The notes under the pieces were generated by a model. That model made no database searches and was not told the DNA's origin. It saw only the letters and a program-made list of their open reading frames with translations. The translations under genes and the position numbers were made by a program. Shown piece after piece: positions 4,302-40,383 of a DNA stretch of 42,082 nt. Numbering within the stretch: position 1 is the stretch's first letter; every line of letters begins with the position of its first letter. The DNA is from Chrysochromulina tobinii (taxonomy: Eukaryota). The stretch lies in NCBI GenBank assembly GCA_001275005.1, contig JWZX01002880.1:1-42082 (forward strand), in the 5' to 3' direction.

Positions 4302-4517
4302 GCGCGCGGGAGGACGGACGGATACTCCATCGCAATTTCGGCGTCGTCAATTGCATCTCCCGCCAAACAAGCGGCCCGATCGGCGATGTTGACCCCGTAG
4401 TTCCCGGTAAGATGATGTGTTTGTATGCCCCTAACGGTAACGTGTTCCCGTCAGGAACATTCGAGGCCCCAAACCATCGCCTTGAGGAGAGGCAAGGGGC
4501 GGGAGAGACGAGAGCAC

Positions 4518-6590
4518 ATGCAGTCCGCTGCATTGGCCCACCACGCCTCCATCACCACGGCGATCGTGCGCGCGCGCGACCGCGCACTCGCGCTGCACTC
4601 GAAGCGCAAGAAGATCCTCGACGAGGACGAGTATGTCGATGAGTTGGAGCGTATCATCCGCCGCGACTTCTTTCCCGACCTGGAGCGGCTTGACGCGCAG
4701 GCGGCACTGCTCGACGCGCTCGAAGCGGGCGACCAGGCTGCGGCCGGCAGGGCACTGGCCAAGCTCGTACCTGCGGTCGCTGCTTCGGCGCCCAACCGCC
4801 TTGCACGCGGCGTCTCGTCATGGTCGCCAGCCTCATTGGCCACCGGTTGGGAGGCGGCCACTCCCGCACTAGGCGCGGGCCACGGCGCCGCGACACCGCT
4901 GCCGGCCAGCGCCTCGTCGTCGGCGCCGCTTCTGTCTGCCGCCAGCGCGCCGCCCGCCGCCGCCGCCGCAGCAGGCCTCGACGCCTTCCTCGCCAAGCAC
5001 ACAAGCGAGGACAACGCCTCGTTTGCCGTTGTGCTCGCCAAGGACCAAGCGGAGCGTAAGCGCAGGTTCTGGTGGGCGCAGGACGTGGGCGAAGGTGGCC
5101 AGCCTCTGAAGCGCCACGCGTGCCTGCATGGGCCGGCCGAGGAGACCCAGCCGCTCGCGCTGCCCCAGCCGGCGCCGCGCCCTCTCGAGACGCTGTTGCT
5201 CACGATTGCGGACCCCACCGCTGCTTCCAAATCGGGCGCCCGCGTTGCTGCGGCTGCGGGCAGCGGCGGCAGTAGTAGCGGCGGAGCGCTGATGGGGCCT
5301 CCGCGAGACGGGGGCGCCCTGCCCGGGACGCTCGCCACGACGCTCGCCACCCCAGACGCCGTCACCGCGCCACCCGTCGTCTCTTACGAGCCGTGTGCCG
5401 CCAGATCCATGGCCGTCGCCGCCACCACCGGCGCCGCCACCACCGTGGCCGCCGCCACCGCCGCCGCCGCCGCCCCTGCTTCCTCGACGGCGCTGGCCTT
5501 GTGCGACCATGCCGAGGCCCCGCGCCCGTGGCACAAGCAAGGATCGCTTCAGCGTGACGTGCGACCCAGCCGACTGACGTACCACCCGTTCACGAACCAG
5601 AATGGTCTGTTCTTCGAGCCCCAGCCGCCCGCCACACAGGCACCCTTTGCGCCGGGGCCCGCGCCGACGATCGTGCACAGCGCGACGCGCTTCTCAGGCG
5701 TCGAGCCGGCGGCCCTACCGGCCGCGCCGCATGCATTAGACGCAGCCGTTGGCGTCGACCTGATCGCGACGCTCTCATCAGCGGCGGCGGCGGCGGCGGC
5801 CGTTGAGCGCGCCAGTACGGACGGGCTTCGAGGGTATAGCCTGGTGATGACACCCCTCTCGGTCAGCGGCGCGCTCGCGCCAGACGTTTCGCCGAGGATG
5901 AGCTGGGGGCAAATCTTCGGCACCTCCACCGGGCTGCCTCAGGACCCGAACGCGCCAGACGCCCGTGCGACGGGCGTAGCGGCGGCTCTCCCACCGTTCA
6001 AGGTGGCCCCGCTACCCGCTCGCGACGTGAAGCTGCATCAGATGGCCAACGACGCCGGCCGCCGGCTGCGCGCCCGCACGCCCGGGGCGGTGCTACCCGG
6101 GGCGGGAGCCCTCCCTGGCGGTTTGGCAGCTGTCGGCGCCAGCACAAGCAGCCCGGTGCTCAGCGCGGCGCGACGAGCCCGCGGCGGCGCCGGCGGCAGC
6201 ACAAGCAGCATGGGCGGCGCGGCCGGGGCGCGGCCTACTACGGGCCTCTCAGAGGCGGCCCTCAAGATGGCCAAGTCGCTCACGCGTCTCACGGGTACGG
6301 CCGCCGCCGCCGACTCCGCCCTCCGTGCGTCGTACCTCGAGCCCACGCCGCGGCCGACGCCGCGGCCGACGCCGCGGCCGACGCCGCGGCCGACGCCGAG
6401 TGGCACGCTGCAGGGCACGCCAGCGCCACGGGGCGGGACGGGCAGTGCTGGCGCCGCGCCCATACGGCCCTCGCCTCTGCTGCTGCGGGGCACGGTGTCG
6501 GCGCAGTCCGGCGGCGGCGCAAACGGCGCACCGAGTGGGAGCCTTACCGATGACCTGCTGAACTTCCTCAAGGCAGGCTCGCGCTGTTGA
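4518..6590 (+). CDS. ESS2: Splicing factor ESS2/DGCR14 (nuclear protein Es2) homolog
   Basis: KILDEDEYVDELERIIRRDFFPDL, LDAFLAKHTSEDNASF, NGLFF, SPRMSWGQI and ALRASY motifs. First ATG at 4518. PTPR x4 repeat near 6345-6398. Confidence 0.9.
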   Translation: MQSAALAHHASITTAIVRARDRALALHSKRKKILDEDEYVDELERIIRRDFFPDLERLDAQAALLDALEAGDQAAAGRALAKLVPAVAASAPNRLARGVSSWSPASLATGWEAATPALGAGHGAATPLPASASSSAPLLSAASAPPAAAAAAGLDAFLAKHTSEDNASFAVVLAKDQAERKRRFWWAQDVGEGGQPLKRHACLHGPAEETQPLALPQPAPRPLETLLLTIADPTAASKSGARVAAAAGSGGSSSGGALMGPPRDGGALPGTLATTLATPDAVTAPPVVSYEPCAARSMAVAATTGAATTVAAATAAAAAPASSTALALCDHAEAPRPWHKQGSLQRDVRPSRLTYHPFTNQNGLFFEPQPPATQAPFAPGPAPTIVHSATRFSGVEPAALPAAPHALDAAVGVDLIATLSSAAAAAAAVERASTDGLRGYSLVMTPLSVSGALAPDVSPRMSWGQIFGTSTGLPQDPNAPDARATGVAAALPPFKVAPLPARDVKLHQMANDAGRRLRARTPGAVLPGAGALPGGLAAVGASTSSPVLSAARRARGGAGGSTSSMGGAAGARPTTGLSEAALKMAKSLTRLTGTAAAADSALRASYLEPTPRPTPRPTPRPTPRPTPSGTLQGTPAPRGGTGSAGAAPIRPSPLLLRGTVSAQSGGGANGAPSGSLTDDLLNFLKAGSRC

Positions 6591-6774
6591 AGAGTGTGCC
6601 TCAGTCCGCAAGAATTACGGGTTCCGTCAAAAATGCTTCGTTCACGAACTTACGAGAAAGTCAACGGCCAATCTGACGTGAAACTCTGAAAAGTCGAGGC
6701 CGAAAAGCCCGCGCCAAGCAAAAAACATCGGTCCCATCCAGCCATCCGTCCTTCCTTTCACGCGTTTCTCGGCG

Positions 6775-7569
6775 ATGGGCGCGGCGTCATGCGTATTGGC
6801 GGAGCTCGACATGAGCGGGAGCAAGCTGGCGGCCGACGACTGCCTCGCGCTCGCCAATGCCCGGCAACTCCACACCCTCGACCTAAGCGGCACCGCCGTC
6901 GCTGAGTCGGCCGCGTCCCTCGAGGCGAATCAATCGATGTACGAAATCTATCCCGCATTGCCAGACGTCCTCAGACTGTTCCCCGATTGCTGCCCCGATA
7001 GCGACACCTTCGCCGTCGCTCTAGTGAGCCGTGCAAGCCGCAACTCAATCCATGAGCTTCATGGCGTGCGTTTCAAGACTCCACTCTCAGCCTGCGTGGT
7101 CTCTATTCCGCGGCTGGCATGGGCTCGACAATGCGGACTACGGGCCACAGACATTGAGTGCCTCGTAGCCGCTGCACACACGGGGGTCATCAAGGTGTGC
7201 CAAGCCCTGCTCACACCTGAGCTGAAGGAGCGGATCTCGATCCTGTACGCGCAGAGTCGCCCGCCGGCCGAGGTGATCCGTGCTGCTGCGACAGGCGGTC
7301 ACGTGCACGTCATCGAGTGGGCACGTGCCCAAGGGCTAGGATGGGATGCTAGTTGCACCGCGGCAGCGGCCTTTGCGGGCAATCTCGAGATGCTGCAGTG
7401 GCTGCGCGCGCACTGCTGTCCGTGGGACAAGAACTGCACCGCTCGCGCCGCTGTGGAAGGACACACCGCAGTGCTCCGCTGGGCAAAAGACAATGGGTGC
7501 GAATACAGCGAGGAGACCGTACTACGCATGAAGATGGCCAAGGCTGCGGCCATGTGGCGATTCATGTAA
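6775..7569 (+). CDS. Ankyrin-like repeat protein (CPWD/GHLE-type repeats) with a short LRR-like N-terminus
   Basis: Repeats AAATGGHVHVIEWARAQGLGWD, AAAFAGNLEMLQWLRAHCCPWD and AAVEGHTAVLRWAKDNGC; N-terminal LHTLDLSGT. Confidence 0.8.
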   Translation: MGAASCVLAELDMSGSKLAADDCLALANARQLHTLDLSGTAVAESAASLEANQSMYEIYPALPDVLRLFPDCCPDSDTFAVALVSRASRNSIHELHGVRFKTPLSACVVSIPRLAWARQCGLRATDIECLVAAAHTGVIKVCQALLTPELKERISILYAQSRPPAEVIRAAATGGHVHVIEWARAQGLGWDASCTAAAAFAGNLEMLQWLRAHCCPWDKNCTARAAVEGHTAVLRWAKDNGCEYSEETVLRMKMAKAAAMWRFM

Positions 7570-7933
7570 ACTTCTGACTATTGTTTTGGAGACTCCACTG
7601 TGTGAGCTTGTGACGCGTCGGTGGCCGGCTGGGCGTGTGGGCGGAAGGTTGTGATACCTCACGCGCGAGCCTGTATGACTCGGATGTGTGCAGATGGACT
7701 GGTTTCTGGCTCGGCTGGGTGTCGTGTGACCCATAGTATAGCCGCCTGCCTTACACAAACGGCTGCCGATCACGTCACCCGCTTCCCCCCCCCGCCGCGC
7801 CCGCGCCCGCTCCACTACCACTTGATACCGCATGGGGCCTATAAACCGCCCCCATTTGAGCTCTCCGGCTCTCGTCGCATCTCCCCAGAGCCGAGCCCAG
7901 CGCCAGGGCGCCCCCCGACACTTGCAGCGATAT

Positions 7934-8293
7934 CTATACATATGACTTAGCAACCGCGAAAACAATGGGACGGACCCCGGGTTTTCCGGTTCAACCGGAT
8001 GTCGGTTGTCGCCCAGACGAGAGGCGGGTGGGTACGTGGGTTGACGCCCGGATGGGCGGATGGGCCGGGTCAAGTCATCACTTGTCGTTGTGTAAGTTGT
8101 ACTGTATGACCCGGTTTGGCGTGGGATGAGCCGGCCTGCCCGGGACGACCTAGCCACCGGGATAGAACGGCGGGACAACCCACACCCCCACCCGGGTCAA
8201 CCCACCGGACCCGCACCCGGGACCGAACCCGGAAAACCCCAGTCCGTCCCATATGGGTGGTCGTTTCTTGGTTCTGCTAAGTTGTATGTGGAG
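7934..8293. mobile_element. MITE-like non-autonomous element with long imperfect terminal inverted repeats
   Basis: Left CTATACATATGACTTAGCAACC...ATGGGACGGACCCCGGGTTTTCCGGTTC matches the reverse complement of the right end CTCCACATACAACTTAGCAGAACC...ATGGGACGGACTGGGGTTTTCCGGGTTC. The interior is non-coding. Confidence 0.6.
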
Positions 8294-8538
8294 TTCTGGA
8301 CACGCAGCTGTGGAGTTGCAACAACCCAGATAACCCCTTGGCCGCACACCCCTTTGACGGCTGGCGGCCACCGTCGCGTCGCGCGCACTCACACTTTTTC
8401 GTTATGCTGCAGGCGACCTCATGTGTCTTTACCCCGGCGCGCACCGACAAGGACCATCCCGTATCACACTGCCCCCCACGGATGATCCCCCTCCCATGGT
8501 CAAGGGAAGGTGGGGCTCGACCAACCGCACTTAACGCA

Positions 8539-9483
8539 TCACGCCGTGCGGACAAAGCCACCGCCCTTGACGGCCTGCCACTCCTGTGAGCACTCGATGG
8601 GCGTCTGCACATTCGCTTGGTCTGCCGTGCACTCATGCAGGAGGGGTTCAGCCGTGGACTGCAGCACATCGTATAGGTTGGGCGTCACGGACTCGGGAGA
8701 AGCGCGGGTTTTCTTCTTGGCTTTGGCTGCCTCGGGCGCACGCGCGACGCTTCTTGTCCCCGCCGGCGCCTCCTGCTCCGCAGCTGGCTGTGGCACTGAC
8801 GGGTGGGGCTTGGTCGAGCTGGCCACGTGTGGCGCCTGGGCCGGCGCAACAGGGCGCAGAGAGGTGTGCCTCGATGCTACCGGCTGCTCGGCGACCGATG
8901 GCAGGGAGCGCGGCGCTCCAGGGGGCTTTCTCCTGCGTGGGATCGTCATATCCCACGAATTGTCGACCTCCTTCACCGTTGCCTGTCTTGGCAGGGCGTC
9001 CGGTGGCAGTGCGATGTGCTTGCTGAACCTGTGCCCTTGCGCTGGCCTCCCCAAGGACACAATCGCCAGGTTACCGTCGTCGAGGACCCAGGCATCTTCA
9101 CCGTCGTCCTCCAAGGCGATCCATCCGCTGTGCGAAGGTGGCCCGCCTCGAAACACAGTTCCCGCTGGGAGCACTCCAAGGAGGCACCTGCCATGTGGAG
9201 ACCCGTAGACGCGGGCTTGGCATTTTGATACGTATTCGTAGGTGGTAGCCGGCTCGACGAGCGACCCGACGACGACCAGTGAACATTGGTCCAGCGCGCT
9301 GCCTTTGACTTCACCGAGCTCAAAGCCCGACGGTGCGGAGACGGTGATGGTGTAGGAATATTCGTGCGTAAGCACCTTGACGATCGGGTCGATGCGCTCG
9401 GAACGCGTTGCGAGAGGAATCCGCATCGGCTGCGAATACTCGGCGAAGGGGTGCGCGTCCCACGGAGAGGCGAACATGATCAC
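8539..9483 (-). CDS. Small heat-shock (alpha-crystallin-domain-like) protein with an internal SH3b-like insert and a disordered C-terminus
   Basis: PIVKVLTHEYSYTITVSAPSG..LVVVGS and RFSKHIALPPDA..ATVKEVDNSWDMTIPRR match the two halves of the HSP20 pattern. Intronless 314-aa ORF. Confidence 0.6.
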   Translation of the reverse strand: MIMFASPWDAHPFAEYSQPMRIPLATRSERIDPIVKVLTHEYSYTITVSAPSGFELGEVKGSALDQCSLVVVGSLVEPATTYEYVSKCQARVYGSPHGRCLLGVLPAGTVFRGGPPSHSGWIALEDDGEDAWVLDDGNLAIVSLGRPAQGHRFSKHIALPPDALPRQATVKEVDNSWDMTIPRRRKPPGAPRSLPSVAEQPVASRHTSLRPVAPAQAPHVASSTKPHPSVPQPAAEQEAPAGTRSVARAPEAAKAKKKTRASPESVTPNLYDVLQSTAEPLLHECTADQANVQTPIECSQEWQAVKGGGFVRTA

Positions 9484-9827
9484 GATGCTCAGGTGTCGCG
9501 AGTGCGCTTTCTTTTTCGTCGTCTGGACGTCTCAATCGCCGAAGCGGCGCTCGCGTTTCCACGAAATCTTGGATCGCTCGCGCGGAGTTAATTAAATACG
9601 CCACGAAAGTGATGCGGCCCCCGACCCCCCCCACAAGATGGCCCCGCGAGCCGCGACCCCCGGAGTTGCATGCGTTTCACGCCAAGAGGCCAAGTTCACT
9701 TTCAAACAGTACATGTAAGACAGCAGGAATTCAGTTGGTGATGGGTACATGTACTGGTAAGCAGACTCACAGACAACCATGGGCCCGAGCCTGTTCACGT
9801 CAAGGCAAGTCTGTTCACGGCTTCGCG

Positions 9828-10221
9828 ATGGCGAGCTTCGGCGGCGCTTTGCCTCTTCGAGGCGAGCCGTCTTCGGGCATGCCAGGGGGCGTGCCAGTGT
9901 TCAATCCAACAGACAGTGCGCACGCTCTCCTTTCGTCCGCCCATAACGACTACCTTGCCCCGCACGCCTGCTCCCACTCAACACTCGGGGCTTGCATGTG
10001 CCCGTGAATGCGAGCAGTGGACATCGATGTCGAAGACGGCATCATCGAGCACGATGCGCCGCAGGAGAGGACCGATGCAGACTTTTTCAACGGTGGGCTA
10101 ACTGCCCACACCGAGCACCGAACGCCTCAGCAACCGCGGCGACCTCCTCTTGATCCCGCTCATCCCCTCAATCCTGCACGCAGATTTTGGTGACGATTTT
10201 GATGACGAGGACCTCGACTGA
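9828..10221 (+). CDS. COPS9: COP9 signalosome subunit 9 (CSNAP/MYEOV2)-like acidic microprotein, 66 aa
   Basis: Exons 9828-9915, 10018-10092 and 10184-10221 (GT-AG) give MASFGG...PTDMDIDVEDGIIEHDAPQERTDADFFNDFGDDFDDEDLD*. The C-terminus matches the CSNAP ADFFNDFxDxFDDxD tail. Confidence 0.85.
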
Positions 10222-10682
10222 GCGCACGTATGTGCTCGACGACCTGGCCCGCTGAATAAGATAGACTACGCATCAGGCCGGCGCAACCATGCCTTGGGCG
10301 TCACGTTGCGCTGCGCCTGAGTCCTGTGCGGCACCCCGGTAGCCTGTGTGAGACAGCGCCATTGCGGTCGAGACGCGTCGTATTCCCTGAGCGAAAAAGC
10401 AGACCCTTTGAGCTATTTGAGCCCTAATTTTCACCATCCAAGCCACACCCCGTCCACGGTCCACGCGCGCGCGGACTGTATGGCGGAGTCCGGAGTCTGC
10501 TGTCTGGTGTCTCGCGATGATCTGGCATCTCGTCCGCGAGACCCGCGAGCCTGAGCGCGACACCCGGCGGTGGACATCGCGAGCTGTGAGACGTGCGGGC
10601 GCGGCCTGTGCACCTCTCTCGCTCCTCTCGCGTTTCGCGTCTCGTCGTGCCCGGCACCATGTGCCCTATGATTCATCAGATA

Positions 10683-12524
10683 TCAAGAGATCTCGCCGGC
10701 CTCCATGCGCCTCTTCCGCTCGGCTTGCATGCGTGCCACATTGAGGCCGGCGGCCGCCTCCTTATTGCCCGGCTCGAGAGCGAGCGCCTTGGTGAAGGCG
10801 GCACACGCGCCGGCGGGGTCCTCCTCGGCCTGGAGCGCGAGCGCCAGCCGGAAGTGCCCCTTTGCAAATTTGGGTTCGAGTTTGACGCACTCGAGCGCGT
10901 CCTCCCGGGCTTGGGCGTACCTGATGAGGGAGGCAATCAGCGGTGCACTCAGCGATGCACTCAGCGATGCACTCGAGCGCGTCCACGTGGGCTCGGGCGG
11001 ACCGTCCAAGCTTGAGAAAGCACGCGGCGCGGTTAGAGTAGAGTGTGTGCTGGCTCCCATCGAGGGTAAGGGCCTCGGTGTAGAAGACGGCAGCCTGCTG
11101 GTACTCATTCGCTTTGAAGGCCTCGTTCCCCTGTGCAGGAGGCAAGCCCATCAGAGGCGATCAGAGGCGATCAGAGGCGATCAGAGGCCTTCCGAGGCGA
11201 GGCCATCCGTGGCCATCCGAGCAAACGCCGTCCACGCAGGACACCTGCTTCTTCTTGTACTCGATCCGCGCCGCCATACGACCCTCTTCCGTCTGCTCTG
11301 CCTGCACTGTGGCCACGCTCGCCTGCTCTGCCTGCTCCTTGAGCATCGTCTTCATCTGCTCGCGCTCGGCTTGCGTGAGCTTCTTGCCTAATCCGGAGCC
11401 GAGCATGCCGTCGACGACCTCGTCGAGCTTGTCCGAATGCATGCGCGTGCGCCTCTCGAATTCGCGCACCTGAGGAGGGAGGCTATCATGGGTCAAGAGC
11501 GTTGTCCGAATGCATGCGCGTGTAATTCGCGCACCTCGCGCTCGGTCGTAGGGAACTCATTGCACAGTCGGATGACCAGCTCAGTCTCGAGCGGACCCGT
11601 CGCCGACAGCCGGCGTGTGATGAACTGGTCGATATCCTCCGAGAGCGCCATCTGCGGCCTCTCCTGTTGGAGCGAGTCAAAGTCGATCGTGGTGCCCAAC
11701 GCGGTGTCGTCTTCAAAAGCGACACTGGTGCTACGTGCTCCGGTGCTCATGAGACGGTCGAAGAAGTCGGCCTGCGCGAAAGTGAGCGCGAGGCCCGTGC
11801 ACTTGTCCACCTGTAGCGTCGCCGCCTTCGCGCCCAGCCGCACCGCCGCGCGCTCGCATCTCCACACCTCGACAATCTCCGTGAGCACCCGCGCCTGCAC
11901 ATCGATGCGAGTGTCGGTGCAGTGCTCGATCTGCACCTTGATCACGGAGAGCTCGGGCGCGAGCGTGAGCTTGCAGCCCTTGCATCCGCTGATGATCAGC
12001 ACGGGCAGCTCCGGCATCCCCTCCTCAGTCGGCGTGATCGTTCGCTCCACGTCTCTCAAGTCGCACAGCTTGAACGGCTTCGCGCGGCTCGGCCCCTCGA
12101 GCTCTCCGGCGAGGCGTGCCTTGGCCTCCTTGAGCAGCTCCTGCTTGCTCTTGGGTTCCGCGCGCTTGAAGCCGTCGAGGAGCGCGGGCGCCACCTCGGG
12201 CGCCGGGTCGGAGGCAAGGAGCCGATCCCACACGCCGGGCACTGCCTTGTGCAGCGTGATCACGAGCGTTGCGGCACCGCCATCCTTGTCGACGACCCAC
12301 AGCGACTCGCCGGTCACGATCACGGCCGAGAGCTCCTCCGAAGCCGGGAGTGGCGACGTGCCTGCCTCGTCCAGCGCGAGCTTTATTGTGCGCGCCGAGA
12401 AGGAGCACTTCACTGACGCCGAGGACGCCCCGAGCGGAACCTTGATGGTGACATCTTGCAGCGTCCGGTCCCAGGTATAGCCCGTGCCACTTCCGCCGCT
12501 GTATTGACCCGGTACGTGCATCAT
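10683..12524 (-). CDS. CS (p23/NudC-like) + C-CAP/cofactor-C-like beta-helix + TPR co-chaperone-like protein
   Basis: Exons 12524-11535, 11469-11245, 11130-11003 and 10920-10683 join in frame (526 aa). CS: YTWDRTLQDVTIKVP..ESLWVVD..LVITLHK..WDRLL. CAP-C: LIISGCKGCKL..LQVDKC. TPR: GNEAFK..AAVFYTEAL..LYSNRAACFLKLGRY..KGHFR. Confidence 0.85.
10921..11002 (-). other. Intron made of an exon duplication + 12-nt repeats + acceptor cassette
   Basis: The first 37 nt match the downstream exon start at 31/37. Then (TGAGTGCAYCGC) repeats, then TGATTGCCTCCCTCATCAG. Confidence 0.85.
11131..11244 (-). other. Intron with (TGATCGCCTC)n filler repeats
   Basis: GT-AG, phase 0, restores KKKQ|GNEAFK. Contains GGATGGCCAC, GGATGGCCTC and three TGATCGCCTC units. 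Confidence 0.85.
11470..11534 (-). other. 65-nt intron made of an exon duplication + acceptor cassette
   Basis: Starts GTGCGCGAATT and CACGCGCATGCATTCGGACAA, both identical to the downstream exon (8-nt gap between them). Ends TGATAGCCTCCCTCCTCAG. Confidence 0.85.
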
Positions 12525-13103
12525 CGTGCTGGTGCTATATCAAGCGAGTTACAGGCTGATCGGCACGAGGCCGTCCGCGGCGGCGAGCTCGGGCGTGGTA
12601 GCCCTATGAAGCGTTTGTGAAGCCAGAAGATTTCTAACGAGTCGATTCCTGAAGCGTGAAAGGACTCATCAGAGAAACCGGGGCGGCAAGTCAGTCATTC
12701 ACAGTTAGTCTTGTCGCGAGTCCCCCGCGCTCACCACACTCCGTCTCAAAGGACGGCTCCGCTGCCCTCGGTCAACACAAGTACTGAGTACTCGGGCCAA
12801 ACTCAAATCTCAATTGAGAATTGTTGGCTTGTGTGGTCGTGCTCTCCCCAAGTTGGGCGTCCGACCGCTGCCGCACGGTCGCCTGCAGTCGACCAGAGTC
12901 AGTCGGTCAGTCAGTCAGTACTCTGTGGAAGTTTTTTTTTTCAACTGACTCAAGTACACGTAAATTTTCGTTTTCTGTGAGGTCTGGGTCGTCCATGGGG
13001 TCGTCTGAGCTCGCCGATTCATATCATATCCACAAGCAAGCAAGCTAGTTAGTCGAAACACATATTCTCAGCGAGAATATGATCCCCATGCCCAGCCCCA
13101 CAT

Positions 13104-13883
13104 TCACTGCCACGGCCAGCGTGCCGCAACGAGCAGCGCAGAGAGGTCGGTCGTTGGCTCGCCTTTGCCAATGCATATGTCGAAGCGCAGCCCCGAGGCC
13201 CTCTCGGCCACCGCCTCCGCCATGACACGGGCGACATCCAGCCTCGAGATGGCGCCGTAATGAGGCAAAGTGTCATCATGTCCCACGATGAGTTCCTTCT
13301 CGCCCGGCCCGTACTTGCCCTCGATGCCGCACGGTTTCACGATCACGTTGCCAATGCCCGAGCTCATCAGGAAGGCCTCGGCGTTCAGTTTCCAAAACAA
13401 GATGGGGCCACCCATGAACGGTTTTGGATTCGGATCGGTGGTGCCCATGGATGAGCAGAGCACGACACGTTTCTCGCTCATTGGCGAAGACCCAGAAGCC
13501 ACCAGTGCCTTCACCTGGTTCTCGACTCCGATAAATTCGATCGCCTTTTGCTCGTCCTCGTCGGAACCACCAGGCGCCCCCACCGCAATGGCCACTGTGT
13601 CGACCCCGGCGAAGGCAGGCGTGAGGGTGGCGGGTACCGTGACATCGCCATAATAGATGCCCTCGGACGCGTCGCAAATCGTGCAGTTGAGGATCTTTTG
13701 GGCATCCTCATGAGCCGTCGATGTGTTGTAGATGAATGCACGAACCATGCCAACACGTGGATCAGCCTTGAGCTGTTTGTAAAGCAGGCTGCCGGTGCCT
13801 CCCGTCGCTCCTGTCACGATGACAGAGGGTGGTGTGAGCGGAAGCTGACCGAGAAAGCCGAATAAGTGCATGACACTGAGCAT
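13104..13883 (-). CDS. NAD(P)-binding Rossmann-fold protein (atypical SDR / NAD_binding_10-like), possible signal peptide
   Basis: VIVTGATGGTGS, GDVT..LTPAFAGVDTVAI, VVLCSSMGTT, WKLNAEAFLMSSG..VIVKPCG, ISRLDVARV. Start ATG inferred at 13883. Confidence 0.88.
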   Translation of the reverse strand: MLSVMHLFGFLGQLPLTPPSVIVTGATGGTGSLLYKQLKADPRVGMVRAFIYNTSTAHEDAQKILNCTICDASEGIYYGDVTVPATLTPAFAGVDTVAIAVGAPGGSDEDEQKAIEFIGVENQVKALVASGSSPMSEKRVVLCSSMGTTDPNPKPFMGGPILFWKLNAEAFLMSSGIGNVIVKPCGIEGKYGPGEKELIVGHDDTLPHYGAISRLDVARVMAEAVAERASGLRFDICIGKGEPTTDLSALLVAARWPWQ

Positions 13884-14789
13884 GAGAAAAAGAAGTGAAG
13901 TCGGTTTAGTCAAGTCGGTTAAGTCAAGTCCGTAAGGCGGTTCTGGTTGACCCCACCGTGGAGGCGCGTACGCGTCGTCTAACGGCCTCGTGCCCTCGTC
14001 TCGAGCATGGTTTGTTGGTTTCGAGAGGTTAAAGGGGTGGGTGGCCGTGTCGCCAAGATGCGTAACGCGTTTTCGCGTGACGCTATGCTGCCATGCCGTG
14101 TGCCGCATTGAAACGAGAGATGAGAGAGATTCATTTCAGATTTTGATTCCCATTGTCGACAATGATTGTCGAGGTTGCCGTGTGACGCCCAAAGTTACAC
14201 GGCTATGAACGAATGAACCCAACGTGAACGAGGGCCAGATTACAGGGGGGACGGTATCCATCATGGAACCAGACAAGGGGGATGCGGGAGAACCCAAATG
14301 GGGGGTCTCTCCGCCGTTAGTAGGGTTTTGGAGGGTGAAGGGGATTCCCAGGGGAAAGCCTTACAGGCAGCGGTTCGTATGCCGCCTGCGCCGCTGCGCG
14401 CGGGCTGATACTGCTCTCTTAATACTCACACGCCGACGGCTCCGCCTCGAGAGAAATTCCGCTGGCGGCTGACGGTCGGACGTTCGAATATCGAAGCGCG
14501 AACTTGAACTTGAACTTGAACGAAGCGCCGACGGTCGGACTTTCGAATATCTTAAATATCAACTTTTACCGGCCCGCCCAAACCGGGCGGCCGGCGGGTA
14601 AAATTTCGCGATCGACATTCATTCTTCAAAGCCAAATGTTCTCATTCGACAACTTAGACAACGGACCGGCGCGCACTTACGGAATTGCTGCCAAAAGCTC
14701 GGGGACCCTGGACCGTTCACAGTGCATCCCCACAGATCTCCTCCGCTCGCGGGAGACCTGTTTGAGTTCCATGTTGCCGAATCTTTCAC

Positions 14790-16307
14790 ATGTCCGCCGG
14801 CGATCCGCTCGCCTCAGAGCAAGACGCGCTCCTTCGTCAGTACTACCTTAGCCGGGGAACCCGCGACACGACGAGCCGGTGGTCGGCCGACGGCCCGAAG
14901 TCCATCTCGCCATTCGTGCCGTGCTGCGCCTCCCGCATCCCGACCGTGCTGCGCGCGGCGCGCTTGATGCCCGACGACGTGCTGTGGGACCTTGGGTGCG
15001 GCGACGGCCGACTGCTGCACCATGCGGCGGGTCAGTATGGCTGCCGATGTGTTGGCGTCGATATCGACGCGCCGTGCATCGCCGAGGCCAAGCAACGCGC
15101 AGTCGAGCAGCGCGTGGCGCATCTGTGCGAGTTTGCCACATGCGACCTGACGGCGCTAGAGCCCGGTGCGCTGCGGCCATCGCCCTCCGCCGCCGACGGA
15201 TGCGTCACACTCGGTGCGGCGGCCCTCGGTGACGACGATTCCTCCGACGGCGACGCTGTGCGGCAGCGGCTGCCGGCGCCGACGTGCGTGCTCATCTTCA
15301 TCACCTCGCATGGTCTGACTCGGCTAGAGCAGTTCCTGCACCGTGAATGGGCCGCGGGCGGGCTGCGCATCGTCACGTGCGTCGAGTCGCTCGCAAGCTG
15401 CTTCGACTTTGAGAGCGAAGACCCCTTATTTGCTGCCGACGAGGGACGTCATGAGTGGCCCATTTATGAGGCGCATGCGCAGCACGGCGTGTACGTTACT
15501 CCGCCGTGCGGCACGAGGGTCGAAGCTTGGGCGGAGCTCGAGCCGCTGCACCTGCCACGCATGCCCCCCACCCCCGCCGAGCTTGATGCGATCGAGGACG
15601 TGCATGCCAACTTTGCCCTCATCGACCAATTGCTCTCCTCGGCTGAGAGGCGCGCCATTGACGAGATCGGCGCGCGCTGTGCGGCAGCGGAGGAGGGGGC
15701 GGAGGGCGGGGGCGTGCCGGTGGCGGCGGCGGCGGGCGACGACGACGGTGGCGCGCTGAGCAGCTTCCTATTCGCGAGCGAGACGGCGGGCGCGAGCGAT
15801 CTCGACGTGATCTCGCGCGTCGAAGATTGCATGCATGCGGCCAAGGAGCACCGCGTTGTGCACCTGCATCGACACGGCGCCTTCCAGGCGGAGCTGCCGA
15901 GGCTGCTCGAGACTGTGCTGGCGCGCGTGCGGGCCGTCGACGCGGGCCGGTGGCGGCTGCTGGTAGGTCGCGCCGTCCACATACGCTCGATCGAGTGGCA
16001 TGTCTACCATCCCGGGGGCGCCGTATCGGCCACCGACCATCGCGATACCGGTAGCCTGTTGACCCTCTCGGCGCTCCTGACGAAACCAGACGAGTACGAG
16101 GGAGCGCGCTTTCAGTTCCCGATCGCTCCACGGGGCATCGCCGGCGCGGCTGCCGCAGCAGTGAGCCCAGCGCTCGCGTGCGGCGACGCGGTCCTGTTCC
16201 CGTCGGAGACACGTCATAGCGTGAGCACACTGCTGAAAGGAGAGCGACGATCCTTCGTCATCGAGCTCTGGGAGGGGCCACCCAATCAGCACAACCGCCA
16301 TCGATGA
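14790..16307 (+). CDS. Class I SAM methyltransferase (FAM173-like) fused to a 2OG-Fe(II) oxygenase
   Basis: N-terminal SPFVP..DVLWDLGCGDGRLL..CVGVDID. C-terminal YHPGG..DHRDTGSLLTL..YEGARFQF..GDAVLFPSETRHSVSTLLKGERRSFVIELW (HxD..H..R). Confidence 0.85.
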   Translation: MSAGDPLASEQDALLRQYYLSRGTRDTTSRWSADGPKSISPFVPCCASRIPTVLRAARLMPDDVLWDLGCGDGRLLHHAAGQYGCRCVGVDIDAPCIAEAKQRAVEQRVAHLCEFATCDLTALEPGALRPSPSAADGCVTLGAAALGDDDSSDGDAVRQRLPAPTCVLIFITSHGLTRLEQFLHREWAAGGLRIVTCVESLASCFDFESEDPLFAADEGRHEWPIYEAHAQHGVYVTPPCGTRVEAWAELEPLHLPRMPPTPAELDAIEDVHANFALIDQLLSSAERRAIDEIGARCAAAEEGAEGGGVPVAAAAGDDDGGALSSFLFASETAGASDLDVISRVEDCMHAAKEHRVVHLHRHGAFQAELPRLLETVLARVRAVDAGRWRLLVGRAVHIRSIEWHVYHPGGAVSATDHRDTGSLLTLSALLTKPDEYEGARFQFPIAPRGIAGAAAAAVSPALACGDAVLFPSETRHSVSTLLKGERRSFVIELWEGPPNQHNRHR

Positions 16308-16759
16308 CGTTGGGTGCACGAGGGGACGAAACACGAGGTGTTTCGCGAAGCTTCAGCGCGACCAGTTTCGAGATGGACGCGAGCGAGCGTTTCGCAAGCG
16401 GCAAGGTGTGCACCCGGACTGGCAGTCTCTTTACGTGTGCAAACTCATATCTGGGCATCAGAATGAGTGGTACACACGGGCGTGTGCATTGGTTATTCGG
16501 GCGGAGCCAGGATCTTTACGCTTTCAGCTCATGTACACCCGCGGACTGTAAATGACCTTTCGTGAAATTCGTCAACACAACTATTACCTCTGGGCTATCA
16601 GTGTATGATTCCTCCACCCCCATGGGCGCGCCCTATGTCACCCGCACCATGCCTCTCGCCACCCTCCAAGCCACGGACTCCTGACGAATGTGTCGCTCCC
16701 TGCCCTTGACCTGTAGGGTCGGACACGTACGGCGATGATGGCATCAATGCCAGCCACGC

Positions 16760-17089
16760 TCATGCGGCATCTTCCTCGAGCAGCACGTCAACAATCTTTG
16801 CAATGTCCTTCTCGCGCTCCATTAGGTCGCCCTGAACGTTCAGCTCGCTGAGCGCCTTCTGCGCCATCTTGATGAGCTCAGGATTCGTCGGGATGCTCCC
16901 ATAGTGCTTGGTATAAAAGTCTAGCACGCTTGCCACCAGCTCACCAAGTTGGTCGTCGTCCAAATCTTTGACAGTCTTTGGCAGCAACTTTGCGGCGTCC
17001 GCCGATTTCTGCGCGTACTTGTGCGCTCCACCTTCTATCGCGCGCTGCGTGTCCGGCGCTGCCCCCTCCGTGCTTTGCTCCGCTCCCAT
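16760..17089 (-). CDS. Small hypothetical protein (109 aa) with a predicted N-myristoylation start
   Basis: MGAEQS start (MGxxxS), normal coding-like composition, helical body. Confidence 0.65.
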   Translation of the reverse strand: MGAEQSTEGAAPDTQRAIEGGAHKYAQKSADAAKLLPKTVKDLDDDQLGELVASVLDFYTKHYGSIPTNPELIKMAQKALSELNVQGDLMEREKDIAKIVDVLLEEDAA

Positions 17090-17394
17090 CGCGTTCCCCT
17101 CGTTCGCGCGTCTAAGCCGCGACGAAAAGACAGAACAACTTTGAAACTTCCCTCGGCGATTCCGCGTTTGGGTTGTGCTGCACTCGAGGGACCCTGAGCC
17201 AAACCGAACCCGCACGCACATGCTGCAATGTACGCGTCAGTACACTACATGTACTCCTTACCGCTGAAAACAGTGAGGCGACGTGATCGTAAATGCGGCT
17301 CGACGCGGGTGCGCAATGTCCAATGATGTGCGCAGTGCGGCCCGGCGCCCGCACACTTAGGATGCCCAAGTACATACACTTAGGATGGATCTCG

Positions 17395-17455
17395 GGAGAT
17401 CTCGAGCTGGAGATATCGAGCTGGAGATCTCGAGCTGGAGATCTCGAGCTGGAGA
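17395..17455. repeat. Tandem 14-nt minisatellite GGAGATCTCGAGCT (~4.5 copies)
   Basis: Directly visible downstream of the ZIP gene stop; the unit contains AGATCT, CTCGAG and AGCT palindromes. Confidence 0.9.
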
Positions 17456-17545
17456 ACTATGCTCGTCCTCGGATTGCATGCACCGCCCGTACGTTCGCGC
17501 GCCGCGGCTGCGCACGCCTCAGCGCACCGGCTCGGGCTGTGGCGC

Positions 17546-18667
17546 TCATAGGCTGGGGTTCGCGGGCGTCTCCCAATCCTGGAAGAGCACGAGCGAGATC
17601 GCCATGATCACCATGCCGAAGATGAGGCACGCGGTCGCTTTCGCCTGGTTGCCCATGTACCGTTGGGCCGCGGGCAGCAGCTCGTGGCACACGATGAAGA
17701 CCATCATGCCGCCCACCATCGAGAAGACGATGCCAAAGACCAGGTCTGTGAAGACGGGCTGCAGCACGGCAAAGCCCGCGATGCCGCCGATCGGCTCCGT
17801 CAGTCCGGAGAGGAACGACCAAAAGAAGGCCTTGGTCGGGCTGCCGGACGCATAGTAGATGGGCATCGCGACGCACACGCCCTCGGGGATGTTGTGCACC
17901 GCGATTGCCACGCCGAGGCTCGCGCCGACCCGGGCGTCATTGACAGTCGCCAAGAAGGTCGCGAGTCCCTCTGGGAAGTTGTGGATCCCGATGGCGAGTG
18001 CGGTCATGATGCCCATGCGTCCGAGGCGCTTCTTCTCTTCGGCATCGGCCATGTCGGCTGCTGTTATCGCCGCATCGTGTGTGTGCGCTACCACCATGGC
18101 GTCGTGCGATCGCACCACCACCTTGACCTGCGCTACCTCTGCCGCTGCCGTCCCTGTGGAGCTGCCTGCACCACTTGCCTCGTCCGAACAGGTCGACGTC
18201 GCCGCCTCTTCTTCGGCCGTCGAGCATTCGTGCTTCTCATGCGAGTTGCCACCGGGGAACCCATGCGCGGGGCACACATCCGCGTGTGTACCGCCGCCAC
18301 ATCTGCTCAACCAGTCGACGAGCACCTCGAGCAGCGCGCAGAAAAGCATACCGCAGAAGAAGCAGGTGGTCGTCACCGCGACGGCGCCGCCCTGGCTGAA
18401 GCCAGCATCCGACGCGGATATGGCTGCGAGCGACTTGACGAAGATCTCGATGAACGAGACGTACAGCATCACGCCTCCGGAGAGTGCAAGCGCGACGGCA
18501 AGCACGATCTGTTGCGGCATGCTCTTGAAACAATAGGGAAAGAAGACGAGCGCACCGCCGACCGAGGTGGCGAGGCCGGCACCGATGCTCACGCCGATTG
18601 CAGGGAGTATCCTCTCCGTGCATGCCCACGCAATCGGGGCGTCACATGGACCGCTCGAGTTCGACAT
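17546..18667 (-). CDS. zupT: ZIP-family (ZupT/GufA-type) zinc/metal transporter
   Basis: AGLATSVGG, LSGGVMLYVSFIEIF, ALAIGIHNFPEGLATF, AIAVHNIPEGVCVAMPIY, SGLTEPIG, GMMVFIVCHELLP. Confidence 0.95.
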   Translation of the reverse strand: MSNSSGPCDAPIAWACTERILPAIGVSIGAGLATSVGGALVFFPYCFKSMPQQIVLAVALALSGGVMLYVSFIEIFVKSLAAISASDAGFSQGGAVAVTTTCFFCGMLFCALLEVLVDWLSRCGGGTHADVCPAHGFPGGNSHEKHECSTAEEEAATSTCSDEASGAGSSTGTAAAEVAQVKVVVRSHDAMVVAHTHDAAITAADMADAEEKKRLGRMGIMTALAIGIHNFPEGLATFLATVNDARVGASLGVAIAVHNIPEGVCVAMPIYYASGSPTKAFFWSFLSGLTEPIGGIAGFAVLQPVFTDLVFGIVFSMVGGMMVFIVCHELLPAAQRYMGNQAKATACLIFGMVIMAISLVLFQDWETPANPSL

Positions 18668-27574: not shown

Positions 27575-30500
27575 ATGCCTGCGGTCAGCGCCAAGGAGAA
27601 CAGGCTGGTTGCCGAAGCCCAGAAAATCCTCTGTTCCGGAGCCCCGTCGTCAGCGCAGGAGATCTTTGACGCCATCAAGGGGGCCGGGCTGCGCTGGTCA
27701 CGCGGCCTATCCATAGCCGACGTGCGGAAGGCAAGAATAACAGTGCAGACGAGCATGCAAGAACAAATGCGTGTCGACGAGGCTATCGGACGCTTCCAGG
27801 AACAGGCGGCCAAGCTACTTCGCAGCGACCAAGAGGCTGCCGGAGTGGAGGTTGGTGAGGAAGAGCAGGACGCACCTGATGCGATTGAAGGCTTCGTTCG
27901 TTTCGACAACAGCCCGAAGGTTGAATCGAGCGCCACGCTGAGCCACGTGGTCGGCGACGGCCTGCGCGAGGCAACCGTCCGCCAGCTCGCATACTTTCTG
28001 ATCCAGGCAGTCACGACCGAGGGCAAGCGCAGCACGAGCGGCGGCGAGAGGTTCAACGTGTCCGTCAGAGGGCCTTCGAAGACGCGCGCAAAAGTGACCG
28101 ACAATAGCAACGGCACGTACCTCGTCGCATGGCGCCCGCACTGCTCGGGCCCCTACTCAATCACCGTGACGCTCGGTGGCGAGCTGCTCCCGGGCTCGCC
28201 TCACCTGGTGCATGTGACAAACTCGTTGCCCTGCGCCTCCAAGTGCGAGGTGAGCGGCAAGGCGCTGGCTGAGGCAGTCTCACGCGTGCCGCAGACGTTC
28301 GAGATCCGCTTCCGCGACCGGTTCGGTCAGACCGCGAGTGCCGTCGAGCTCGATCTCTTTGTGGAGGCAGTGCCGCCGAACAGCCCACGCGGGCGGGAGG
28401 TGCCGCTAACGGCCGCGCAACGATTGCTCATCGAGCAAAAGGAGGCGGCCGAGGCGGCGGCGGCGGCGGCGGCGGCCAAGGGCAAGAAAGGAGATGGCAA
28501 GGGGGGGCAGCTCAAGGGACGAGCTAGGCTAGCAAGCAAGGAGGTAGGGACGACGACGACGACGACGCTAGTAGTGGTACCGCCGCCGAAGGCCGGAGTA
28601 TACGGAGCTTCAGTGCCACCGACAAGGCGCGAGAAGCGCGTGAGCAATGAGAGTGGGACGACGCCGCCAGTGGCGCCGCAGCCGCTGCCGTCCTCTCCCG
28701 GGCGGACCTCGCCCGTGATCTCGCCCGTGACGGCCTCAGCGGCGCGTGTGGAGCAGCAGCAGTTGCAAGCGAGAGCAGCAGGGCCCATGGGCAAGTGGCT
28801 CGCCGGTCCTCTGAGCGAGTGGGCCTATGCGATCGACCAAGGGCCAGGCAGCGCCGATGAGGCTCGGGACGCCGCTGTCGAGAACGAGCCAGGAGAGATT
28901 CGGTACCGTACAATCCGCGTCCGGGTGGGTGAGAAGCCGCTCATCCTGCGCACCGCGCCTGCCAAGGGAAGTGCTCCGATCGGTCGCCTGCTGCCTGGTC
29001 AGGTGGTGACCGTCCTCGAGGAGCACATCTCAGCGGACGGCGAGGTGCGTGCATGCGTCTCATGATCGCCACGTTGATTGCCACGGATGACCCGCCTTGC
29101 ATGCAAGTGCTCACCACAGTGCGCGTCCCCACAGGTGCGTGCATGCGTCTCGCTCGATTCGGTCGAATGGTCGATAGACGGCCACGAGGAGCCATTCATC
29201 CCTCCATTCATCCCTCCACTCTCGGCACGCTCGAGCTCACGCATGAGCAGCGACGGCAGCGGCGCGCTGAGCGGCCGTTCTGGTCAGCTCTCGAGTCGCT
29301 CCTCAGGCCAGCTCTCGAGTCGCTCGTGCAGCTCCTCTGGGGGAGGAGCCCTCAGCAGCCGTGTCGGCGGCGGCGAGGGCGGCGGCACGCGCCACAACCG
29401 CGCGCGACACCCCTTCGGCTCGCCTCGAGCCTCGAGCCGCAGTGGGGCGCTCACGGCACGCCAAGCCGCCGCAGCGTCACCTCAAGCTGCTCTCATCGAC
29501 CAGCCTCTGCAGGCGCCCACAGCCGCCGCCGCCGAGATGACGGCGACGAGCGAGGTCAGCCGCTCGTCGTCTGGCGCCAAGTATGGCGCGTTCAGCGCCA
29601 AGGACGCCAAGTATGGCACGTTCAGCGCCAAGACGGCCGAGGGGGGTACCGGTACGGCGAGGGCCTCCGGCGAAGGCGCCTCGCGTGAGAGAGCCTCGTG
29701 CAAGATAGGCTGGGTGACGCTGATGAAGGAGGGGCGCGTGAAGCTCGTCTCATCACGTGTGCAGCTGGGTCCAGGGTCGCGCCGACAGTACTCAAGCCAA
29801 TGGGAGCGACAGAGGCATACGAAGCAGGCGCTCGCGGACCCGAAGCCATCGGTGGACGCGGGGGTGCTCATCGAACGAGAAGTCGGCGCCGATCCGAGCG
29901 GCATTGGATTCGGCTTCGGCGGGGTCGAGCCTGGCACCTTGCATGCGCATGGCGAGCTGCATGAGGTCCATCGGGTCTCGTATGCCCTCTCGCTCGCCGG
30001 CACCTACTTTCTGCACGTGCGGCTCAGGCATCAAGCGTTGCCTTTGCCAGGCTCTCCATTCAAGCTCGTTGTGCGACCGGGCGCCGCGTGCGCACGCACG
30101 TCGCGCCTGCTACCTGGCGTGCTACGCGGGAAGGTGGGCGGCGATGCCGACTCGGGCTGTCAACAGACTCTGCAATGCGCCGACCAAGTGGGCAATGAGT
30201 GCATCGCGGGTGGCGCACCTGTAGAGGTCAGATGTTTCACGGAGGACGGCCTGGTGGCCGCGCCCGGCATGGAAACGACCGTGACCGACCTCAAGGACGG
30301 CACGTACACTATCCGCTGGCGCTCCAAGTTTTCGGGCAAGTTCCGCGCGAGTGTCCAAATCGGCGACGAGGACGTGCGCGGCTCGCCCGTCCAGATTGCG
30401 CTCGTGTCGTCCACACCAGAGCTCAACAAGTCAGAGCTCTCGGGCGGCGGGCTCACGGGCGCCGTCGCGGGCGAACGCTCGCACTTTCGCATCAAGTTCG

Positions 30501-38314: not shown

Positions 38315-40383
38315 ATGGCGACGCAACTTGGCGAGTCCGACGACATGGACTACGCGGCGCTCGTCGGCGCTGTCCACGCGGCAGACTCACCCCGGCAGCC
38401 GGCGCAGCTCCGCGAGGCCTACAATAATCTGCTGCGTGCATGGCCTCTTTGCTACGGCTACTGGAAGCGATTTGCAGATTTTGAGGTCGAACAAGGGTGC
38501 GTTGAGCGAGCCAGCGAGGTCTACGAGCGTGCGCTCGTGCTCGGCAGCTACTGCGTGGAGATATGGGCGCACTACGGTGCGCACGCTACGGCATACTGGC
38601 AGCGGCCGGAGGACGTTCGTGCCCTTTTTGAGCGTGGTGCCAGCTTGGTCGGCTCCGACTATGGCGCAGACGTCTTCTGGGATCGTTACATTGCCTTCGA
38701 GACAGCGCGCGCCGGCGCGGACCACTCGCGCGTCTCGCAGGTGTTTCGGCGCGCGCTGCAGCATCCCTTGCGCTCACTCGACGCGCTCTGGCTCCGCTTC
38801 CAGCAGCTCGCCGTCGAGCGCTCATGTGCCGAGGTGCTCGATGCGAGGGAGGAGGCGGTACTGCAGCAGATGTTGGAGGCGGCGGGGCTGGCGCCGCACC
38901 GGCCGTGCTCGTCGGAGACGGAGGATGACGGCGCGCGCAAGCTGCGGCTGCTCCCGCTCCTCGAGGCCCATTTTCGACGCGCCAAGGCCGATCACGCCGA
39001 AAGGCTTCGTTGGGAATCGGGGGTGCGGCGACGCCACTTCCATTTAAGGCCGATGGATGCAGCGGAGCTCGAGCATTGGAACTCGTATCTGGATTGGGAG
39101 GAGCGGCGTGGCAATGTGCCACGCCTCATCCTCACCTATGAGCGATGCCTCGTGCCGTGCTGCCTCGAGCCCGCAATGTGGCGACGGTCAGCTGATTGCA
39201 CCCGGATCACCACTTCGGTCTCTGATCAGCACCTCGGATGACCCTCTGAGGACCATCGATTGATTCCATCGGATGGCCCTCTTCTTAGTTCCCCATGTTC
39301 GTTGCATGCTGATGGCCGCTGATGGCGTCCCTTTTTAGGTATGTGAGCGCTCTCGAGGTTCGTCAGATGCTACCTGAGGCACGCCACGCCTTCGCTCGCG
39401 CGAGCGGGCATTTCCTCAAGGCGCGTTGCTCGTTCGTGCTCGAGCACGCGGCCTTCGAAGAGGCCCACGGGTTCTATGACGAAGCCCGCAACCTCTACGC
39501 CGCCGCTTCGGCGCTCCGACCGCCAGTGCTTGGTGCAGCGCTAGCACAGGCAAGCTTAGAGCGACGTCTTGGTGATGTGGCGCGGATGCATGCAGCTTTC
39601 GAGGCTGGCGCGACGGCCTTCTCGGGCGAGGAGCTCACTTACCTAATCAGGCACGCCGTGCGACTTGAGCGTCAGCTGCGCGGGAGCTATGCGTGGGCCG
39701 TTGAGTTGCTCGAGACAGCGCTTCGACGCGAGCCGTCCTCTGAGTTGCTATGGGACCTTCGAATAGATTTCGAGCTTGATTGCATCGAGGTCGAGCCGGC
39801 GACGCCGATGGGCACCGCTCCCACGACTGCGGGCGCCGCGCCCACGACTGCGGGCGCCGCGCCTGCTGCGGGCGCCGCGCCTGCTGCGGGCGCCACGCCC
39901 GCTGCGGGCGCCGCGCCTGCAGCCGTCCGACATCGCGCGAGTGGTGCGGCCATGGCGCGGGTAACGGCCCTGTTCGAGCGGGCAATCTCGAGTGTATCTC
40001 CGCTCTCAGACGAAGCGCAGCAAGCGATGTGGCGCCGTTACGAGCAGTGCCTCCTCGACTACAGCGAGAGCATTGAGCGAGTGCGGCAGCTGCGCACCCG
40101 CTCCCGCAAAGAAGCTCCCAGCTCCAAGCGGCAGAAGACGTTGCCAGCGCCGCCCGACACGCCCGGCGCAGCGCCCACGCAGCCCTTAGCCTCGCCACTT
40201 GCGTCCGCTGGCGCGCCGCCCTCATACCACTACCCGCCACCATACGCATCTACCAGTGGCGAGTATGCGCACCCAGCCGCCGCGGCGGTGGTCGGCGGCT
40301 ATCCTCCCTACTATGCGTACCCGCCCTACTTCCAGCAGCAGCAGGCCTTCACCTTCAACGGAAGCTTCCCGTACTGTGGCTGA
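38315..40383 (+). CDS. PRPF39: Pre-mRNA-processing factor 39 (HAT repeats)
   Basis: Exons 38315-39186 and 39339-40383. Motifs WPLCYGYWKRFADFE, VRALFERGASLVGSDY..FWDRYIAFE, RRRHFHLRPM..WNSYLDWE, TYERCLVPC. Confidence 0.92.
39187..39338 (+). other. Intron with degenerate GATGGCC-type repeats (possibly an older member of the repeat-filled intron class)
   Basis: Contains CTGATTGCAC, CTGATCAGCACCTC, GGATGACCCTC and GGATGGCCCTC, and ends CTGATGGCCGCTGATGGCGTCCCTTTTTAG. No exon duplication is visible. Confidence 0.75.

What the first reader, a model, noticed from the sequence alone, without database searches (positions are those of the whole stretch)
10921..11534. Two independent introns share a 19-nt 3' acceptor cassette
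Intron 10921-11002 ends TGATTGCCTCCCTCATCAG and intron 11470-11534 ends TGATAGCCTCCCTCCTCAG (17/19 identical), while their 5' parts copy different exons. The PRP39 intron ends similarly (TGATGGCGTCCCTTTTTAG). This exceeds a normal branch/polypyrimidine consensus and implies a common donor (master element or small RNA template). The filamin intron uses a second cassette, GTGCTCACCACAGTGCGCGTCCCCACAG.
Basis: partly seen in the sequence, partly recalled or inferred. Interest (0 to 1): 0.75.

Follow-up and report, generated by a model that had tools for sequence, protein, structure and literature searches.

The report
Introns copied from other introns
In the alga Chrysochromulina tobinii these two short introns belong to a large family whose front part repeats the start of the gene's own next exon and whose back part is shared with introns of other genes, and they likely arise when a copying enzyme jumps onto an existing intron at a short matching sequence, which would let introns multiply without a transposon.

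Summary
Observation confirmed. Both introns are spliced in RNA contigs and the 19-nt 3' cassette is absent from six ordinary introns of the window. It marks a family with over 130 loci in C. tobinii-like algae. Typical anatomy: a 12-56-nt copy of the adjacent exon supplies the GT donor; about 10-nt repeats plus one of two cassettes supply branch site and AG. No master element, reverse transcriptase or small RNA was found nearby. Instead, three donor-recipient pairs show introns copied from other introns at short matches; one pair involves intron 10921-11002 itself. An intron's closest look-alike lies in the same locus about 14 times more often than chance (first cassette only). Copies sit almost only in sense-strand coding DNA. 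Best reading: template switching onto existing introns, probably on RNA (0.45); DNA repair synthesis is the main rival (0.3). A published introner survey lists this species with 0 families. The scan found this family before in another piece of this genome (e1-2577349); the donor evidence is added here.

The parts
10683..12524 (-). Host gene: CS-domain + TPR protein, 4 exons, 526 aa (C. tobinii KOO26227.1)
10921..11002 (-). 82-nt family intron: exon-like 5' part, repeats, cassette 1
   Evidence: RNA joint in 2 of 4 runs
10966..11002 (-). 5' part of that intron: 31/37 like its own next exon and 18/20 like the exon-copy unit of locus L045
10884..10920 (-). Start of the downstream exon that the 82-nt intron repeats
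10933..10979 (-). 12-nt tandem repeats, 3.8 copies, running into the cassette
10921..10939 (-). Cassette 1, exact (likely branch site TGAT, pyrimidine tract, AG)
   Evidence: branch-site role inferred
11131..11244 (-). 114-nt intron with family-type 10-nt repeats, decayed end (9/19), no exon copy seen
   Evidence: RNA joint in 3 of 4 runs
11470..11534 (-). 65-nt family intron
   Evidence: RNA joint in 2 of 4 runs
11502..11534 (-). Copy of the start of its own next exon with an internal deletion; read-through proteins of related strains keep a longer copy
   Evidence: P0037, P0040
11429..11469 (-). Start of the downstream exon that the 65-nt intron repeats
11470..11488 (-). Cassette 1 with 2 changes; other strains encode the exact form (HDCLPHQ read-through)
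   Evidence: P0055, P0061
26108..26206 (-). Mirror-class candidate intron: shared 5' start and repeats, 3' end a 20-nt copy of the upstream exon end
   Evidence: not tested with RNA
29045..29134 (+). Filamin-gene candidate intron: 17-nt copy of next exon plus cassette 2 (core 29099-29117)
   Evidence: not tested with RNA
39187..39338 (+). PRP39-gene candidate intron, decayed family member (14/19), no exon copy
   Evidence: not tested with RNA

Best explanation
The two introns are members of a family in which a 12-56-nt copy of the adjacent exon is joined to a piece shared with other introns, and they likely formed when a reverse transcriptase copying the gene's RNA jumped, at a short matching sequence, onto an existing intron and then landed back a little downstream, with the product recombining into the gene. 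Shown: splicing, the exon copy, the shared ends, pairs of introns at unrelated sites that share private sequence with short matches at the junctions, a same-locus bias, and a sense/coding bias. Inferred: that the positions are gains in the C. tobinii/parva lineage, the direction of copying in each pair, that one event makes both copy and insert, that the template is RNA, and the enzyme (none identified). An insert survives when the duplicated stretch offers GT/GC and the copied piece offers branch site and AG (or the reverse, the mirror class); each new intron can then be a donor. The core (copying from existing introns at short matches, with a long duplication) I put near 0.8; the RNA step brings the whole chain to 0.45.
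For: Exon copy upstream of 79 of 173 unique cassette-1 acceptors against 7 of 865 shuffled pairs; flanking direct repeat at 53 of 121 and 25 of 38 isolated cassette-1 and -2 sites against 10 of 150 control sites. Acceptors not selected for GT are followed by GT/GC in 28 of 33 and 27 of 33 cases against 48 of 231 background CAG. Donor pairs: L028:348-448 is 97/101 identical to L028:3216-3316 of the same gene, and the shared 5' part matches only the second site's exon; the L125 intron carries 9 nt of L068's exon-derived sequence after a 7-nt match, with no homology outside the introns; the window's 82-nt intron matches L045's unit (score 31-33 against mean 12.2, sd 3.3, over 274 exon starts). 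Nearest look-alike in the same locus 25.7 of 113 against 1.75 in 500 permutations, maximum 7.8. Sequence after the cassettes classifies like coding DNA (139 sense, 31 noncoding, 17 antisense of 187; held-out CDS 247/65/18 of 330; random pieces 284/270/246 of 800). Five orthologs on 5-19-kb contigs read through all three intron sites. A one-step insert without an intron exists: L056, 51 nt in frame with a 37-nt duplication.
Against: A few inserts are antisense to the host gene (L019:270-365, L049, L001/L101), and L101 holds an inverted copy of a nearby exon, which fits DNA repair better. 23 pure tandem duplications and 58 with other spacers among 191 direct repeats show that this genome duplicates short DNA without these cassettes. 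Cassette 2 shows no same-locus bias (3.3 and 1.9 of 33 against 2.0). 94 of 173 acceptors have no exon copy above the threshold. Junction matches were measurable in only 8 of 33 cassette-2 introns (5 of 8 had 2 nt or more). Neighbouring introns 100-200 nt apart survive, so cDNA tracts would have to be short. No reverse transcriptase was identified, and no presence/absence polymorphism was seen in 5 strain pairs. The strand classifier is crude (75% correct on CDS).
Confidence: 0.45

Rival explanations
1. Same outcome, DNA template: repair of a staggered break makes a short tandem duplication and a polymerase (theta-like, recalled) inserts a patch copied from a nearby or distant intron at a short match; selection keeps the patches that splice.
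For: Antisense and inverted local inserts, in-frame exonic insert L056, many cassette-free duplications, same-locus bias. Small tandem duplications arise at breaks with 3' overhangs (PMC8355091, abstract only).
Against: Blind DNA insertion should leave many neutral copies between genes and antisense inside introns; sequence after cassettes is as sense-coding as real CDS and only about five antisense cases were seen.
Confidence: 0.3
2. A non-autonomous mobile element (SINE-like or introner) from one or two master copies inserts with a long target-site duplication and variable 5' truncation.
For: Fixed 3' cassettes in many loci, variable 5' ends, duplications. This is the reading of earlier finding e1-2577349 (an unchecked note).
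Against: Recipients carry private sequence of specific donor introns; same-locus bias; 5'-intact mirror class in 9 of 39 candidates and both-ends-cut pieces (L056); no significant fold in 4 introns tested (z -1.8 to 1.7); no RT, transposase, tRNA or Rfam hit in the window; published introner duplications are 3-9 bp.
Confidence: 0.12
3. Two steps: whole introns are copied first, then a local duplication of the intron end plus exon start followed by loss of the original part leaves the exon copy at the 5' end.
For: Whole-intron copy L028; tandem repeats of [exon start + cassette] are common (L045, P0055).
Against: Needs an exact deletion each time; L056 and L019:270-365 show insert plus long duplication where no earlier intron is evident; L125 switches directly from its own exon copy into another gene's intron.
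Confidence: 0.1
4. The cassette is only an extended acceptor consensus or local gene conversion within this gene.
For: It contains a branch-like TGAT, pyrimidines and CAG.
Against: Six ordinary spliced introns match at 5-9 of 19 and 1 of 6 is followed by GT; 134 stretches elsewhere; the exon copies are left unexplained.
Confidence: 0.02

Closest known systems
Introners that co-opt one splice site from the target duplication (Symbiodinium, Polarella classes 4/5 and 6/8/10; Chrysochromulina sp. TARA family 5; Emiliania fam24) - PMC9860276 passages, bioRxiv 10.1101/2020.10.14.339549 parts 1-2 of 4, PMC12130899 supplement rows
   Same: Many related introns; one splice site from duplicated host sequence, the other carried by the insert; both the carry-3' and carry-5' forms occur here.
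   Different: Duplications here are 12-56 nt and variable against fixed 3-9 bp; no fixed element ends or end-to-end identity; donors are other introns; C. tobinii is listed with 0 introner families.
Intron gain by tandem genomic duplication of an AGGT-containing segment - PMC3443670 passages
   Same: The intron contains a copy of adjacent exon and takes its donor from it.
   Different: Branch site and acceptor come from a foreign intron-derived piece, so AG before the donor is not needed (38 of 79 first copies follow AG).
Intron transposition and the Roy-Irimia models (reverse-transcription template switching, spliceosomal retrohoming) - as summarised in PMC3443670 section 6 and PMC3609843 passages; the original paper was not seen
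   Same: New introns derive from existing introns, also within one gene.
   Different: Those summaries describe whole-intron moves with few cases (14 in the review's table); here most copies are partial and come with a long exon duplication. Reverse splicing would not duplicate exon (inference).
[quoted passage not shown]
   Same: Insert flanked by direct repeats.
   Different: Filler here is recurrently the same two cassettes, traceable to donor introns.

Membership tests
Spliceosomal intron | Removed from RNA at GT..AG, restoring the frame | tested here: met
   (82-, 114- and 65-nt introns)
Introner (transposon-derived intron family) | Related intron sequence at many unrelated sites | tested here: met
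Introner (transposon-derived intron family) | Similarity over nearly the whole intron, with fixed element ends | tested here: not met
   5' parts are locus-specific exon copies of variable length; whole-intron copy seen once
Introner (transposon-derived intron family) | Intron absent at the site in relatives | tested here: met
MITE / DNA-transposon introner | Short fixed target duplication of 3-9 bp | tested here: not met
   12-56 nt, variable
MITE / DNA-transposon introner | Terminal inverted repeats | tested here: not met
   Ends differ per locus; only a 5-bp stem inside cassette 1; folds not significant in 4 of 4 introns
SINE / non-LTR retro-insertion | Master copy with Pol III or tRNA-derived head, or partner LINE | tested here: inconclusive
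   None in the window (36 of 61 long ORFs scanned); whole genome not available
SINE / non-LTR retro-insertion | Intact 3' end with 5' truncation in nearly all copies | tested here: inconclusive
   Common, but the search selected for the 3' end; mirror class 9 of 39 and both-ends-cut L056 depart from it
Pure tandem-duplication intron | Whole intron is duplicated exon, both sites from AGGT | tested here: not met
   Shared foreign cassette forms the 3' part
Reverse-transcription template switching model | RNA template and reverse transcriptase | not testable with these tools
   Only indirect: sense/coding bias, same-locus bias

The most novel reading that the evidence does not exclude
Thousands of C. 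tobinii introns propagate as a chain reaction with no transposon at all: any family intron serves as donor, reverse transcription switches onto it at a short match, and a long exon duplication supplies the missing splice site. This would be genome-scale, traceable evidence for the template-switching model of intron gain, invisible to introner screens that need end-to-end similarity, and possibly general in haptophytes.
Probability: 0.4. Interest if true: 0.85.

Novelty: new variant of a known kind. Interest (0 to 1): 0.68.

Why it matters
How new spliceosomal introns arise is a long-open question; introners (transposons) are the only route shown to act in bursts according to the surveys read. 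Here many young introns keep a readable record of target, donor and junction, in a cultured alga with a 59-Mb genome. Donor-recipient networks, empty alleles and intergenic counts can be computed from existing assemblies, which makes competing models of intron gain directly testable. It also shows a class that a survey of 8716 genomes scored as zero in this species. Extrapolating 3-6 family introns per 42 kb gives roughly 4,000-8,000 in the genome (rough inference from one window).

Tried and rejected
No whole genome or record handles, so all counts rest on 133 scan-selected loci (392 kb) plus the window. Viral master: 0 hits for cassette 1; 1 hit for cassette 2 at the very end of a phage-like contig, most likely a chimeric join. 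No Rfam, tRNA, RT or transposase hit in the window. The high-copy repeat near 12.7 kb is not the master: it shares only a 9-nt word and its two look-alikes lie outside introns. Five strain pairs showed no intron presence/absence. A first strand classifier was too weak (88 of 112) and was replaced. Cassette density against GC was uninformative (2 of 42 low-GC windows, 46 of 413 high-GC). Of the opposite-strand hits, the L049 cassette-1 hit is real coding sequence and L030 may be an intron of a divergent gene; both were dropped as evidence. Intron lengths show no 3n preference (21 of 55); 23 of 78 repeats got no junction and a few automatic junctions there are wrong. No sign that donor positions +3 to +6 were improved after duplication. 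Folding was not significant (the 99-nt mirror intron was folded one base out of register). The notebook gives 271 as background count; the correct sum is 231.

Full report
Source and observation. The window is a Chrysochromulina tobinii contig: the gene at 10683-12524 (-) clusters with KOO26227.1, seen on a 42082-nt contig, and its four exons translate to that 526-aa CS/TPR protein. RNA contigs skip the 82-nt and 65-nt introns, each in 2 of 4 runs, and a 114-nt intron between them in 3 of 4; some RNA-run contigs still contain the introns, and a DNA-run contig runs through the 65-nt one. Six other RNA-supported introns in window 1000-20900 (from the 15 of 46 joints shown) match the cassette at only 5-9 of 19 and show no exon copy by eye, so it is not the generic acceptor.

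The family. After removing duplicates, 79 of 173 cassette-1 acceptors have an upstream copy of the downstream exon start, against 7 of 865 shuffled pairs. A second cassette (core GCATGCAAGTGCTCACCAC, then GGCGC, a C-rich tract and CACAG) is common in the same loci although not selected for. Flanking direct repeats occur at 53 of 121 and 25 of 38 isolated sites against 10 of 150 controls. For the 55 of 78 with an assigned junction the duplication is 12-56 nt and the intron 50-163 nt; copy and exon are 95.5% identical over 1066 nt in 38 introns. Acceptors not selected for GT are followed by GT/GC in 28 of 33 and 27 of 33 cases against 48 of 231 background CAG, which suggests that introns whose copy has decayed arose the same way (inference). 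A mirror class has a shared 5' start and a 3' end that copies the upstream exon (9 of 39 candidates, one at window 26108-26206).

Age. Orthologs at 57-60% identity on 5-19-kb contigs (P0013, P0015, P0065, P0071, P0073) read through all three sites; I infer from contig length that these are genomic and that the introns were gained in the C. tobinii/parva line. Five strain pairs gave no presence/absence case.

Donors. L028:348-448 is 97/101 identical to L028:3216-3316 in the same gene; the shared 5' part matches only the second site's exon, and both junctions share a few bases. The L125 intron copies 25 nt of its own exon, then after a 7-nt match continues with 9 nt of L068's exon-derived sequence, its repeats and cassette; the loci share nothing else. 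The window's 82-nt intron aligns along its length with the 69-nt unit of L045; an 18/20 match occurs nowhere else in 869 kb, and the score of 31-33 compares with 12.2 +/- 3.3 over 274 exon starts and 35 for its own exon. Its 5' part is thus a mosaic; direction is not settled, though R at that codon in three distant orthologs favours L045 as donor. For cassette 1 the nearest look-alike is in the same locus for 25.7 of 113 introns against 1.75 in permutations (24.2 of 91 against 2.19 in a subset); cassette 2 shows no such bias.

Where inserts lie. Sequence after the cassettes classifies like coding DNA on the same strand (139 of 187 sense; CDS 247 of 330; random 284 of 800). Exceptions exist: an in-frame 51-nt exonic insert with a 37-nt duplication (L056), a 30-nt duplication that does not start at GT (L061), and antisense inserts (L019:270-365 with a 34-nt duplication, L049, L001/L101). 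Of 191 short direct repeats in 370 kb, 110 flank family sequence (lenient motif, enriched loci), 23 are pure tandem and 58 have other spacers.

Mechanism. Shown are the anatomy, the donor pairs and the two biases. One synthesis event that leaves the target, copies part of an existing intron and returns downstream explains all classes, including whole-intron copies. Because most exon inserts should be harmful while intergenic ones are neutral, the scarcity of intergenic and antisense copies argues for a transcript-bound process; I therefore favour reverse-transcription template switching (0.45) over DNA repair synthesis (0.3), a master element (0.12) and a two-step route (0.1). No enzyme was identified; the window holds no RT, transposase, tRNA or Rfam hit, and viral contigs gave nothing credible.

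Comparison with what is known. Introners with one co-opted splice site are known, with 3-9-bp duplications (PMC9860276, passages and supplement search; bioRxiv 10.1101/2020.10.14.339549, parts 1-2 of 4; PMC11282704, passages). C. tobinii appears once in the stored 2022 supplement, in the list of genomes surveyed (file cut when stored), and with 0 families in the 2025 dataset (PMC12130899, 12 of 14 supplements searched; its preprint, term search and part 1 of 4). The C. tobin genome paper mentions introns once (PMC4580454, passages). Tandem-duplication gain, break-repair gain and the template-switching proposal are in PMC3443670 (passages and section 6), PMC3609843 and PMC3488318 (passages); PMC8355091 was seen as abstract. 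Ten searches of the held library listed no title or abstract describing this family; subscription papers, bioRxiv supplements and the unsearched supplement files may bear on that. That Emiliania introns are rich in 10-11-bp repeats is recalled (paper not held).

Verdict. A real, lineage-wide intron family that works like an introner but fails the tests for fixed ends and short duplications; a new variant of known intron-gain routes, with donor evidence that makes the mechanism testable. Interest 0.68.

Noticed in passing
window 12690-12795: High-copy intergenic repeat upstream of the TPR gene (summed DNA contig depth near 49,000 at 12764 against about 40), next to (AGTC)n runs; look-alikes in L056 and L005; no Rfam hit. 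Unrelated to the cassettes; identity unexplained.
   Followed up: partly
L134:4350-4554: Phage-like viral contig whose last 200 nt look like an algal family intron with cassette 2; probably a chimeric assembly end.
   Followed up: partly
P0017 (ortholog, C-terminal tail): Read-through ends in alternating T/L residues at a different position, as expected from an intron made of telomere-like hexamer repeats in another haptophyte (inference).
   Followed up: no
P0036 (C. parva model): The model keeps 10 residues of the 82-nt intron's exon copy, likely a mis-called donor caused by the duplication.
   Followed up: no
L019:1-5000; L028:200-3400; L001: Single genes with 10 or more family inserts, while most genes of the window have none.
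   Followed up: partly
L049 (- strand gene): Gene with a family-A DNA polymerase-like C-terminus (motif recalled, not tested) whose stop codon appears to be supplied by an antisense cassette-2 insert.
   Followed up: no
window 17395-17455; L021:4251; L033:1879-1987: Other short repeat arrays (GAGATC-type units) between direct repeats, possibly a third cassette family.
   Followed up: no
L094, L099, L117: The same 33-nt GT..AG unit sits inside compound introns of three loci.
   Followed up: no
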